Source: Naegleria gruberi (taxonomy: Eukaryota). Taken from it: 1,467 nucleotides of DNA. Position numbers and translations under genes: made by a program. The notes below the pieces were generated by a model. It did no database searches. It saw only the letters and a list, made by a program, of their open reading frames with translations, and was not told the DNA's origin. Where the stretch lies: the NCBI GenBank assembly GCA_000004985.1, contig GG739416.1. The stretch is one strand, 5' to 3'. Below, piece after piece: positions 1-1,467 of this stretch (within the stretch, counting starts at the first letter, position 1; the number at the start of each line of letters is the position of its first letter).

Positions 1-1467
1 CATAGCGAGAACAATGAATTGGAAAACCTAAAACAGCAAACAATTCAAATGGTGGAACATTGTAAGAATGTAAATGGAGAGGTTATTGTGCCATTCTTTG
101 GTTATACTGGCGTGGGAAAGTCTCTGCTCATCAATCTTCTATCCAATTGTAAACTCATAACTGTTAAGAATGAAATGGACCTTGATGTTTTGGATTTTGA
201 AGATGCAAAGACTAAAGTTGGCCAAACTCTTGAATCAGAAACTTCTACACCAATATGTGTGAGAAATAATGATTGTGAATACATCATATTGGATTGTCCT
301 GGATTTTTTGATAACAGAGGCGATTTGACTCGATTAATGGTAAATCTATCCATTAGGTTATCAATTCAACAAGCTCTCCAAGTGAAAGGAATTGTAATTA
401 TGATAGATATTGATGATTTAATTAACAGGAGTTCAAAATTCAATGAAACTGCCTCATTATTTGGAACCATGTTGAAGGAAGATTTTCCAGAAAAGTCTAT
501 GATTGTTGTTATCAACAATAAGAAAGGTAACAAGGTCAACAGGTACACAGTTAACAAAGCTATTGAATTACAACTACAAGGAGCGAAATCAAGATGGTTG
601 AGATTAGCTCAACAGACTGCATCCTTTTTGAAATTTTGTTCTGATGGAGAGAAAGAATCTGCCAGCGTTAGATTTCTCAATTTACTTCATTCAAATCTTG
701 ACAGAGTATTCCTGTTAGATGTAAACAATCAAAATTCCATAGTAGAAATCAAAAAAGCAATTAATAATCTATGTCCTGTCAGTTGTGAATATTTTGAAAC
801 CAATACTTTCGATGAAACATGGAATAGATACAACAATGTTATCAGGAAGGTTATGGAAGAATCTATCAAGTTTTATGATAATTATGTAAACATCAAACGA
901 TTAATGGATCAACAAAAAACTAACATTGCTGAATTGAACACCAGAATTGAAAGTTATTCAGATAGGCTCAAAGAAATTCAAAAAACAAATATTGAGAAAG
1001 AGTCTGAGCAGGTTGATTATGGATTACAACGACTTTATTCTGAAAAGAAGGATGAAATCAAACGTCTTACTCAAGAATTGGATGCACTGAATTTATTAAT
1101 CAAAAAAACTCAGTTTTCAAGAGATGAATTGTTAAAGAAACAAAAGGAGCTTGATAGTGAAGAAGAAAAACAAATTTTCAAGGAGCAAATTAGTGAAAAA
1201 CGAAATTCTATTCTGGGATGGATTTCATATACTGCTAAAACCATTGAATATGATGCTCAATGTCCATTCAGGGAAGAAAAAACAATTACCACTGGAAAAT
1301 TACAAGAATCAAAGAAACATTCTTCAACTTATTATCACAAGTATTATTTTACTAATTGGGGAGAAGATGCTGAAATGAGCTTAATTCTTTTTGCAAAGAA
1401 AAAAGATCTTCCTGGTAACATAATTATGTCCGCAATTAATAGAAATGATTACAAAACATTGAGGAAG
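1..1467 (+). CDS. Internal fragment (partial at both ends, at least 489 aa) of a large multi-domain P-loop GTPase: AIG1/GIMAP-like (septin-like TRAFAC class) G domain followed by a long coiled coil
   Basis: Frame +1 is open for all 489 codons at roughly 1/3 G+C; a random open frame of this length is extremely unlikely (a hand estimate with ~7% stop probability per codon gives about 1e-15). All five other frames are broken by frequent stops. The translation carries recognisable GTPase motifs in the canonical order and spacing. There is no start or stop inside the window, so the gene continues upstream and downstream. Confidence 0.88.
100..123 (+). other. G1 / Walker A P-loop motif GYTGVGKS (GxxxxGK[ST])
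   Basis: Codons 34-41 of frame +1, ggt tat act ggc gtg gga aag tct, are read directly from the sequence. Next comes LLINLLSNC, matching the 'GKS-hLhN-Lh' helix typical of TRAFAC GTPases (Era, EngA, septin, GIMAP). Confidence 0.85.
241..258 (+). other. Candidate G2 / switch-I element TSTPIC (T-x-x-C signature of AIG1-type G domains)
   Basis: Codons 81-86 are act tct aca cca ata tgt. They lie about 12 residues upstream of the DxPG motif, the spacing seen in AIG1/GIMAP proteins. Which Thr is catalytic cannot be decided by eye. Confidence 0.45.
289..312 (+). other. G3 / Walker B motif LDCPGFFD (hh-D-x-P-G-h-F-D)
   Basis: Codons 97-104 are ttg gat tgt cct gga ttt ttt gat. DxPG preceded by hydrophobics (IIL) is the canonical switch-II start. 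The trailing G-h-F-D resembles GIMAP (DTPGLFD) and septin (DTPGFGD) rather than Ras-like DTAGQE. Confidence 0.8.
505..528 (+). other. G4-equivalent element VVINNKKG (degenerate [NT]KxD: Gly in place of the guanine-specificity Asp)
   Basis: Codons 169-176 are gtt gtt atc aac aat aag aaa ggt, a hydrophobic strand followed by N-N-K-K-G. This is in the position where GIMAPs have hhhFT[RH]K[DE]D and classical GTPases have hhhNKxD. The preceding 'ASLFG' parallels the GIMAP 'hFG' segment. The alignment is by eye only. Confidence 0.45.
886..1206 (+). other. Predicted coiled-coil region (~105 aa), E/K/Q/L-rich with heptad-like hydrophobic spacing
   Basis: Translation: ESIKFYDNYVNIKRLMDQQKTNIAELNTRIESYSDRLKEIQKTNIEKESEQVDYGLQRLYSEKKDEIKRLTQELDALNLLIKKTQFSRDELLKKQKELDSEEEKQIFKEQISEKRN. 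It is continuous charged/helix-favouring sequence with I/L/V/Y recurring at about 3-4 residue intervals and no Pro, and one Gly (in VDYGLQRL). Confidence 0.6.

What the first reader, a model, noticed from the sequence alone, without database searches (positions are those of the whole stretch)
505..528. G4 guanine-specificity aspartate appears to be replaced (NNKKG instead of [NT]KxD)
G1 and G3 are canonical, so nucleotide binding and hydrolysis machinery look intact. At the position where the hydrophobic beta-strand should end in [NT]KxD (TRKD/THKE in GIMAPs), the sequence reads V-V-I-N-N-K-K-G-N-K-V-N, with no Asp or Glu until the Glu of KAIEL. The G4 Asp hydrogen-bonds the guanine base. Losing it typically relaxes or switches nucleotide specificity (for example to ATP or XTP) or marks a regulatory pseudo-GTPase.
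This would be functionally informative for an immune or effector NTPase.
Basis: inference. Interest (0 to 1): 0.5.

Follow-up and report, generated by a model that had tools for sequence, protein, structure and literature searches.

The report
GTPase-like switch lacking guanine-reading aspartate
This Naegleria gene fragment encodes a nucleotide-driven switch domain that lacks the aspartate that normally reads guanine, but the same is true of nearly all of its large, uncharacterised family (shared by amoebae and their intracellular bacteria and often fused to a ubiquitin-ligase domain), so it is a family trait and not a one-off loss.

Summary
Nt 505-528 encode V169-V-I-N-N-K-K-G176, and there is no Asp or Glu from residue 165 to 188. 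A confident AlphaFold model (pLDDT 91), the end of the Pfam MMR_HSR1 match and a profile alignment to GIMAP7 all place this segment at the true G4 position, the end of strand beta5. G1, the switch-I Thr81 and G3 are intact and invariant.

The interpretation needs changing. This is not a private loss in a GIMAP. The window is the first ~60% of a Naegleria gruberi member of a distinct, uncharacterised AIG1/Toc/Era-like family. Its layout is G domain, coiled coil, novel beta-sandwich, coiled coil, U-box.

Among 145 family G domains, only 4% have [NT]KxD and 16% have any acid at that position. [TN]-K is kept. Here the Lys sits one residue later (N-N-K).

Loss of the Asp does not by itself predict specificity. 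The closest fold, Toc34, has T-H-A-Q and binds GDP and GMPPNP, whereas SpoIVA (N-S-x-R) became an ATPase.

Most likely this is an active NTPase with non-canonical, probably relaxed, purine recognition. A pseudo-GTPase is unlikely. Biochemistry is needed to settle specificity.

The parts
4..72 (+). N-terminal helix (aa 2-24) that precedes the G domain
   Evidence: AlphaFold2 model, helix 2-24. It aligns with the same region of P0003 and P0004.
76..870 (+). G domain (aa 26-290), a TRAFAC-class P-loop NTPase fold
100..123 (+). G1 / P-loop, G34-Y-T-G-V-G-K-S41
   Evidence: G34, G39 and K40 are present in 148 of 148 family members, and S41 (or Thr) in all.
235..252 (+). G2 / switch I, S79-E-T81-S-T-P84, with the sensor Thr81
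   Evidence: T81 is present in 149 of 149 members. The family motif is I-G-x-x-x-S-E-T-x-x-P.
292..321 (+). G3 / switch II, D98-C-P-G101-F-F-D-N-R106-G107
   Evidence: D98 and G101 are present in 149 of 149, F102 in 134 of 150, D104 in 126 of 150 and R106 in 133 of 150. F102 lies at the Ras Gln61 position.
499..528 (+). Strand beta5 plus the degenerate G4, M167-I-V-V-I-N172-N173-K174-K175-G176. This is the finding.
   Evidence: Model strand 167-172, loop 173-180. The MMR_HSR1 match ends at residue 172. Family columns: position 1 is T100/N34/S9; position 2 is K103; position 4 is P49/E16/N13/S11/T10/D9.
541..693 (+). Helical hairpin (aa 181-231) between G4 and beta6, longer than in minimal G domains
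   Evidence: Model helices 181-204 and 209-231.
706..741 (+). Strand beta6 plus the G5-equivalent loop, V236-F-L-L-D240-V-N-N-Q-N-S246-I
   Evidence: Model strand 236-239. The family motif after beta6 is [D73/N47]-[PVIL]-[LF]-D89-x-G-x-S-[RK]. The window keeps D240 but has Asn in place of the second Asp.
814..1155 (+). Long helical, coiled-coil-like linker (aa ~272-385)
   Evidence: Model helices 272-289 and 375-384. Only weak matches to coiled-coil families across 279-395.
1165..1398 (+). Conserved six-stranded beta-sandwich module (aa 389-466) with no Pfam family
1411..1464 (+). Start of the second helical segment (aa 471-488). The gene runs off the contig here.
   Evidence: Model helix 98-115 of the aa 374-489 construct. 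P0003 and P0004 continue into a coiled coil and a U-box at about aa 640-730.

Best explanation
What it is (shown). The window is the whole of a 1467-nt Naegleria gruberi contig and holds the first ~60% of one gene. The gene belongs to a large, uncharacterised family of TRAFAC-class NTPases related to AIG1/GIMAP, Toc34 and EngB/Era. In the closest full-length relatives the layout is: N-terminal helix, G domain, ~100-aa coiled coil, small beta-sandwich, second coiled coil, C-terminal U-box E3-ligase domain.

Nt 505-528 are the true G4 position, at the end of beta5. The family keeps the first two G4 residues, [T/N]-K, which form the floor and hydrophobic wall of the purine pocket. It does not conserve the fourth residue, the Asp that hydrogen-bonds guanine N1/N2. 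The window's subclade has N-[N/D]-[K/R], with the Lys one residue later.

How it most likely works (inferred).
- All phosphate-, Mg2+- and gamma-phosphate-sensing residues (G1, T81, D98xxG101) are invariant, so it binds and hydrolyses a nucleoside triphosphate.
- Position 4 of G4 is free to vary, and the conserved residue after beta6 alternates between Asp and Asn. The base pocket is therefore probably not tuned strictly to guanine. I expect relaxed purine specificity: GTP and ATP both accepted, so effectively ATP-driven at cellular concentrations.
- A hydrophobic residue (F102) replaces the catalytic Gln, as in Toc, GIMAP, MnmE and Era-type proteins. Hydrolysis is therefore probably stimulated by nucleotide-dependent G-domain dimerisation, helped by the coiled coils.
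- In the full-length protein that dimerisation would gate the U-box ligase.

Sub-confidences: true G4 and family-wide degeneracy 0.9; active NTPase 0.8; relaxed or ATP-leaning specificity 0.45. The overall confidence given is that of the weakest step, the specificity call.
For: - Sequence and frame.
- Source organism: the window is identical to an NCBI partial protein of N. gruberi.
- Family size: an exhaustive HMMER search found 700 cluster representatives at E<=1e-3 and 47 at E<=1e-10.
- Motif conservation over 150 G domains: G34, G39, K40, T81, D98 and G101 are invariant.
- G4 statistics: [NT]KxD in 6 of 145; [NT]KxE in 11; other acid at position 4 in 6; [NTS]K with no acid in 83; N-[ND]-[KR] in 8, including the window.
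- Structure: pLDDT 91.1, strand 167-172, G4 loop pLDDT about 95.
- Fold neighbours: Toc34, GIMAP1, EngB, GIMAP4, Toc33, GIMAP7. The profile aligns G4 to GIMAP7 T-R-K-E.
- Architecture: a U-box in P0003, P0004, P0006, P0007, P0009, P0011 and P0026, collinear with the window.
- Precedent for a G-fold turned ATPase: SpoIVA has G4 N-S-x-R, and Era engineered to NSxR plus SAE prefers ATP (PMC7952092). With N172 as position 1, the window reads N-N-K-K: no Lys at position 2 and a basic residue at position 4, like SpoIVA.
- The position-4 residue varies even within the window's own subclade (K, F, T, T, N, Y, F).
Against:
- Toc34, the best Foldseek match, lacks the G4 Asp (T-H-A-Q) yet binds GDP and GMPPNP. 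This shows that guanine binding can survive the loss.
- Family-wide retention of [TN]-K and of an Asp/Asn directly after beta6 (D240 here) is what a still guanine-shaped pocket would look like.
- The register is uncertain by one residue: N172-N-K-K or N173-K-K-G.
- The dimerisation and U-box-gating steps are inferred by analogy, and the U-box is not in the window.
Confidence: 0.45

Rival explanations
1. The protein is still guanine-specific, through a relocated acid as in Toc34. D240, the first residue after beta6, lies at the position of Ras Ser145 and Toc34 Glu210. Its carboxylate would read guanine N1/N2 in place of the missing G4 Asp, making the protein an ordinary GTPase with a non-canonical G4.
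For: - The closest fold, Toc34, has G4 T-H-A-Q and an acid (E210) directly after beta6, and was crystallised with GDP and GMPPNP.
- The family conserves Asp/Asn at that position in 120 of 139 members, and a second Asp three residues later in 89 of 139.
- [TN]-K is retained.
- In a PDB survey, 20.5% of guanine complexes use an Asp or Glu outside NKxD (PMC11594714).
Against: - The position alternates between Asp (73) and Asn (47). That is not expected if a carboxylate must accept two hydrogen bonds from guanine.
- Acids at G5 show no covariation with the presence or absence of an acid at G4 (Fisher p = 0.81 and 1.0), so there is no sign of compensation.
- The second conserved Asp is Asn in the window and in P0003.
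- That Toc34 E210 contacts the base is my recollection. I could not verify it in the held literature.
Confidence: 0.35
2. The domain is a pseudo-GTPase. It no longer binds or cycles nucleotide and serves only as a structural or dimerisation scaffold for the ligase.
Against: G1, T81 and D98xxG101 are invariant across 148-149 family members at about 20-36% overall identity. This is strong purifying selection on exactly the residues that bind phosphate and Mg2+. Pseudo-GTPases usually lose several of these.
Confidence: 0.07
3. The G4 is misassigned, or the sequence is an artefact. Either the real base-contacting loop lies elsewhere and carries an Asp, or the contig is a decaying pseudogene or a bacterial contaminant.
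For: The contig is only 1467 nt and the gene is cut at both ends. Single-sequence profile alignments to Ras and Toc34 aligned only the P-loop or nothing, so residue-level equivalence rests on the model's topology.
Against: - Three independent placements agree on residue 172.
- All 489 codons are open.
- Two N. lovaniensis paralogues sit on 45-kb and 107-kb nuclear contigs and are collinear with the window.
- The same acid-free G4 recurs in relatives from many sources.
Confidence: 0.04

Closest known systems
Toc34/Toc33 chloroplast import GTPases (PDB 1h65, 3bb1, 3bb3)
   Different: Toc34 also lacks the G4 Lys, which this family keeps. Toc34 is a tail-anchored plastid receptor with no coiled coil, beta-sandwich or U-box. 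Sequence similarity is too low for hhalign to align the two. Toc34 binds GDP and GMPPNP, whereas nothing is known for this family.
GIMAP/AIG1 GTPases (GIMAP1, 4, 7; Pfam PF04548)
   Different: GIMAP7 has an acid at G4 position 4 (T-R-K-E). This family mostly has Pro or other non-acidic residues there. The AIG1 model does not match the window protein. The C-terminal architecture is different.
SpoIVA, an Era-derived TRAFAC ATPase
   Same: It is a G-fold with intact G1-G3 and a degenerate G4 (N-S-x-R) lacking both the Lys and the Asp. In the strict register the window reads N-N-K-K, again with no Lys at position 2 and a basic residue at position 4.
   Different: SpoIVA's ATP preference also needs an S-x-E in G5, whereas the window has D240-V-N. 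SpoIVA polymerises on the forespore and has no ligase domain. There is no specific sequence relationship between the two.
EngB/YsxC and Era ribosome-assembly GTPases (Pfam MMR_HSR1)
   Different: As established knowledge, not tested here, these have a canonical NKxD. They lack the helical hairpin insert and all of the C-terminal modules.
RNF112 (ZNF179), a GTPase plus RING E3 ligase (PDB 9jjw)
   Same: It is an E3 ligase that contains a G domain. It appears among the Foldseek hits (rank 28, E 1.8e-3).
   Different: This is my recollection and was not tested: the RNF112 G domain is of the GBP/atlastin type, and its ligase domain is an N-terminal RING, not a C-terminal U-box. The resemblance is in architecture only.

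Membership tests
TRAFAC-class P-loop GTPase fold | Walker A / G1 motif GxxxxGK[ST] | tested here: met
   G34-Y-T-G-V-G-K-S41, invariant across the family.
TRAFAC-class P-loop GTPase fold | Conserved sensor Thr in switch I (G2) | tested here: met
   T81 is present in 149 of 149 family members.
TRAFAC-class P-loop GTPase fold | Walker B / G3 motif DxxG | tested here: met
   D98-C-P-G101, present in 149 of 149.
TRAFAC-class P-loop GTPase fold | Overall G-domain fold | tested here: met
   [not shown]
Canonical guanine-specific GTPase | G4 motif [NT]KxD, with the Asp reading guanine N1/N2 | tested here: not met
   The window has N172-N-K-K-G176 with no acid in residues 165-188. Only 6 of 145 relatives have [NT]KxD.
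Canonical guanine-specific GTPase | G5 motif S-A-[KL] after beta6 | tested here: not met
   The window has D240-V-N. The family has [D/N]-[PVIL]-[LF]-D.
Canonical guanine-specific GTPase | Measured preference for GTP over ATP | not testable with these tools
   This needs binding and hydrolysis assays, or a ligand-bound structure.
Pfam MMR_HSR1 (PF01926) | Score above the curated gathering threshold | tested here: met
   27.1 bits against a cutoff of 21.9, residues 32-172.
AIG1/GIMAP (PF04548) | Score above the curated gathering threshold | tested here: not met
   No AIG1 match to the window protein even at E<=10. Relatives P0011 (27.6 bits) and P0013 (29.1 bits) just pass the cutoff of 27, and P0009 (19.3 bits) does not.
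AIG1/GIMAP (PF04548) | G4 with an acid at position 4 | tested here: not met
   The profile alignment puts the family's variable position opposite the Glu of GIMAP7 T-R-K-E. The window has Lys or Gly there.
Toc34/Toc159 family | Close fold and sequence relationship to the Toc G domains | tested here: inconclusive
   [not shown]
U-box E3 ligase (PF04564) | A U-box domain in the same polypeptide | not testable with these tools
   The window ends about 150 aa before the point where the U-box lies in the collinear relatives P0003 (639-710) and P0004 (660-729). The only record of the N. gruberi gene is this 1467-nt contig.
SpoIVA-type G-fold ATPase | Degenerate G4 together with an S-x-E motif in G5 | tested here: inconclusive
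   The G4 is degenerate in a similar way (N-N-K-K against N-S-x-R). The G5 is D-V-N, not S-x-E.
Known anti-phage defence proteins (PADLOC) | A significant match to a defence-system model | tested here: not met
   Only weak P-loop or coiled-coil matches, E 3e-3 to 7e-5.

The most novel reading that the evidence does not exclude
The whole family would be a lineage of G-fold NTPases that has drifted from GTP to ATP or promiscuous purine use, an independent repeat of the transition seen in SpoIVA, YchF and kinesin. It would act as a nucleotide-gated, dimerisation-activated U-box ubiquitin ligase, with a previously undescribed beta-sandwich module. The family would have been exchanged horizontally between heterolobosean amoebae and their intracellular bacteria (Legionellales, Chlamydiales, Amoebophilaceae, Holosporales, Rickettsiales), making it a shared weapon in host-symbiont conflict over the ubiquitin system.
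Probability: 0.25. Interest if true: 0.65.

Novelty: new variant of a known kind. Interest (0 to 1): 0.4.

Why it matters
If specificity is relaxed or ATP-leaning, this would be another independent case of a GTPase fold changing its nucleotide. It would come with hundreds of natural sequence variants at G4 and G5, which could be used to map which residues set base specificity.

Independently of that, the work defines a large family of NTPase-coiled-coil-beta-sandwich-U-box proteins that matched no dedicated model in Pfam or NCBIfam. The family is shared by Naegleria and by intracellular bacteria of protists. Such proteins are candidates for nucleotide-controlled manipulation of host ubiquitination, and none has been studied biochemically in the literature I could search.

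For annotation, the practical lesson is that a missing NKxD Asp in an AIG1/Toc-like domain cannot be read as 'inactive' or 'ATP-specific' without looking at the family.

Tried and rejected
- The word-indexed protein search found only the protein itself plus one distant hit. Repeating it with the family alignment found nothing new.
A tighter alignment, A2, worked.
- hhalign of the family profile against single sequences failed for the G4 register. With pea Toc34 it gave no meaningful alignment, and with H-Ras it aligned only the P-loop. Residue equivalence therefore rests on model topology, the end of the Pfam match and the GIMAP7 profile alignment.
- Model coordinates are not exposed to scripts, so no distances to a modelled base could be computed.
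- The afdb50 fold library was unavailable.
- Literature searches for which Toc34 residue reads guanine, or for XTP-switch mutants, found nothing usable. The GIMAP2 structure paper is not held.
- Compensation test: acids in G5 do not co-vary with acids in G4 (Fisher p = 0.81 and 1.0). I therefore dropped the idea that statistics alone could show a relocated specificity residue.
- PADLOC gave no defence-system match.
- I considered bacterial contamination and rejected it, because the N. lovaniensis paralogues lie on long nuclear contigs.
- The weak PDB hit to Legionella LepB (4jw1, E 0.038) lies in the helical region. I treated it as chance.
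Full report
**1. The observation**

The window is one open reading frame in frame 1: 489 codons, no stop, 31% G+C. The other frames hold only short ORFs. Nt 505-528 encode V169-V-I-N172-N173-K174-K175-G176. Residues 165-188 contain no Asp or Glu, and the first acid is E189. G1 (G34YTGVGKS41) and G3 (D98CPG101) are canonical, and a switch-I Thr (T81) is present. On its own, an acid-free tetrapeptide is unremarkable (P about 0.53 at this protein's composition). Its meaning depends entirely on whether this is the G4 position.

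**2. Is it the G4 position?**

Yes, by three independent routes.

- The Pfam MMR_HSR1 match, the only model above its threshold (27.1 bits against 21.9), runs from residue 32 to 172 and covers profile positions 4-112 of 113. From memory, that model ends in '...lvlNK'.
- A profile of 38 family members aligns 'SilfvitkaEE' to GIMAP7 'KHMVILFTRKEE'.
- An AlphaFold2 model built on that alignment is confident: mean pLDDT 91.1, pTM 0.89, residues 171-180 about 95. It shows the canonical order: beta1 28-33, P-loop; strand 95-98, DxxG; strand 131-136; strand 167-172; loop 173-180; helix 181-204; a helical hairpin; strand 236-239; the G5 loop.

The first G4 residue is normally the last residue of its strand (PMC7952092). 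That makes N172 position 1, so the motif reads N-N-K-K, with Lys shifted from position 2 to 3 and Lys at the 'Asp' position. If there is a one-residue bulge, the motif is N173-K-K-G176. Neither register has an acid.

**3. What the gene is**

- *Source.* The sequence is identical to an NCBI 'predicted protein, partial' of Naegleria gruberi on a 1467-nt contig, so the window is the whole contig.
- *Family size.* An exhaustive HMMER search with aa 1-290 found 700 cluster representatives at E<=1e-3 and 47 at E<=1e-10.
- *Architecture.* The nearest named relative is N. lovaniensis XP_044542194, 787 aa, which UniRef names 'U-box domain-containing protein'. Pfam scans show a recurring layout of G domain, coiled coil and C-terminal U-box in P0003, P0004, P0006, P0007, P0009, P0011 and P0026. 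The window aligns collinearly with residues 22-491 of P0003 and 27-509 of P0004. It therefore covers about the first 60% of such a protein and stops about 150 aa before the U-box.
- *Distribution.* In bacterial and archaeal genomes, 39 confirmed loci come almost entirely from intracellular associates of protists: Legionella and Legionellales, Chlamydiales, Amoebophilaceae and Cytophagales, Holosporales, Rickettsia and Tisiphia. In those bacteria the C-terminal partners vary: a U-box in L001, PPR repeats in a Chlamydiales protein, and often nothing recognisable.
- *Prior mention.* Comparative-genomics papers have mentioned 'GIMAP-type GTPase' effector domains in Amoebophilus (PMC3417536, PMC3482391). 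I found no biochemical study and no discussion of their G4.

**4. The key result: the missing Asp is a family trait**

In a MAFFT alignment of 150 G domains, G34, G39, K40, T81, D98 and G101 are invariant, while overall identity to the window is only about 20-36%.

At G4, read without gaps from the aligned strand end:

| Position | Residues (counts among 145) |
|---|---|
| 1 | T 100, N 34, S 9 |
| 2 | K 103, R 9 |
| 4 | P 49, E 16, N 13, S 11, T 10, D 9, G 8 |

By motif class:

| G4 class | Members | Share |
|---|---|---|
| Canonical [NT]KxD | 6 of 145 | 4% |
| Any acid at position 4 | 23 of 145 | 16% |
| [NTS]K with no acid at position 4 | 83 of 145 | 57% |
| N-[ND]-[KR], the window's type | 8 of 145 | 6% |

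The eight N-[ND]-[KR] sequences are the window, P0003, P0004, P0006, P0007, P0011, P0031 and P0040. In them the following residue is K, F, T, T, N, Y or F, so it is unconstrained.

**5. A second conserved element**

Directly after beta6, at the G5 position, the family has [D 73 / N 47]-[PVIL]-[LF]-[D 89]-x-G-x-S-[RK]. The window keeps the first residue (D240) but has Asn for the second Asp, as does P0003. These acids do not co-vary with an acid at G4 (Fisher p = 0.81 and 1.0). The statistics therefore neither show nor exclude a relocated specificity residue.

**6. Structural neighbours and what they teach**

- Foldseek ranks pea Toc34, GIMAP1, FeoB and Toc33 first (E 2.5e-5 to 5e-4, TM 0.4-0.5).

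The domain is thus a genuine TRAFAC G-fold on the AIG1/Toc/Era side, but it is not close to any solved family. I confirmed from the PDB sequence that Toc34's G4 is T162-H-A-Q165, with E210 directly after beta6. The entries are GDP and GMPPNP complexes.

The nearest fold therefore shows that guanine nucleotides can be bound without the G4 Asp. In the other direction, SpoIVA (G4 N-S-x-R plus S-x-E in G5) is an ATPase, and Era engineered to NSxR plus SAE prefers ATP. A PDB survey reports that 43.3% of guanine-bound complexes lack NKxD and that 20.5% use an Asp or Glu from elsewhere. Loss of the Asp is informative but not decisive.

**7. Most likely mechanism**

*Shown:* the G-fold, intact G1-G3, a degenerate G4 across the family, and the modular architecture.

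*Inferred:*
- It is an active NTPase (about 0.8), because the residues under the strongest conservation are exactly those for phosphate, Mg2+ and the gamma-phosphate sensor.
- Its base recognition is non-canonical and probably relaxed (about 0.45, against about 0.35 for Toc34-like guanine specificity through D240). The reasons are that G4 position 4 varies freely and that the G5 residue alternates between Asp and Asn, which is odd for a residue that would have to accept two hydrogen bonds from guanine.
- Phe102 occupies the Ras Gln61 position, as in the hydrophobic-substituted GTPases (Toc, GIMAP, MnmE, Era). Hydrolysis is therefore likely to be stimulated by nucleotide-dependent dimerisation, assisted by the coiled coils. 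In the full-length protein this would bring two U-boxes together.
- A pseudo-GTPase is unlikely (about 0.07).

**8. Novelty and score**

A degenerate G4 in a TRAFAC domain is a known phenomenon, so a specialist would not be greatly surprised. New here:
- The degeneracy characterises a large family with no dedicated model in the two curated libraries searched, Pfam and NCBIfam.
- The family pairs the G domain with a conserved and apparently novel beta-sandwich, and in the window's clade with a U-box.
- The family is shared between Naegleria and intracellular bacteria.

I rate it a new variant of a known kind, with interest 0.4.

**9. Limits**

- No ligand was modelled, and no coordinates were available to measure contacts.
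- The register is uncertain by one residue.
- Family statistics come from the best 150 of 700 representatives.
- The U-box is inferred from relatives, not seen in the window.
- That Toc34 E210 contacts the base is my recollection and is unverified.

Noticed in passing
[not shown]
   Followed up: yes
window 1-174: The public NCBI gene model (P0001, 413 aa) starts at Met59 and so omits the P-loop (aa 34-41), although the frame is open from nt 1 and relatives align from aa 4. It also ends at Pro471, which may reflect a predicted splice donor at cct|ggtaac, while the homology continues past that point.
   Followed up: partly
window 292-321: Switch II reads D-C-P-G-F-F-D-N-R-G. Phe102 lies at the catalytic-Gln position (134 of 150 members), Arg106 is highly conserved (133 of 150) and Asp104 is conserved (126 of 150). 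Arg106 could be a catalytic or interface arginine. Cys97 and Cys99, which flank Asp98 in the family consensus 'CDCPGF', are also unusually conserved.
   Followed up: no
window 541-693: A ~50-residue helical hairpin (helices 181-204 and 209-231) is inserted between G4 and beta6, where minimal G domains have a single helix. It is confidently modelled.
   Followed up: no
L001-L039 (genome-contig loci): Bacterial family members are nearly confined to intracellular symbionts and pathogens of protists: Legionellales, Chlamydiales, Amoebophilaceae, Holosporales, Rickettsia and Tisiphia, and one Marinamargulisbacteria MAG. Some genomes carry many copies, for example at least 6 loci in Amoebophilaceae SS36425bin_2. 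The C-terminal partners differ: a U-box in L001 and PPR repeats in L005. The direction of transfer between amoebae and bacteria was not analysed.
   Followed up: partly
P0044 (2721 aa), from the exhaustive search: One hit matches the window's residues 73-111 (switch I to G3) in 19 separate stretches, which suggests a protein built of many repeats of that segment or of tandem degenerate G domains.
   Followed up: no
window 631-954 (aa 211-318): There is a weak sequence match (E 0.038) of the helical region to Legionella effector LepB (PDB 4jw1, 'Effector protein B'). I treated it as chance, but it is curious given the family's distribution in Legionellales.
   Followed up: no
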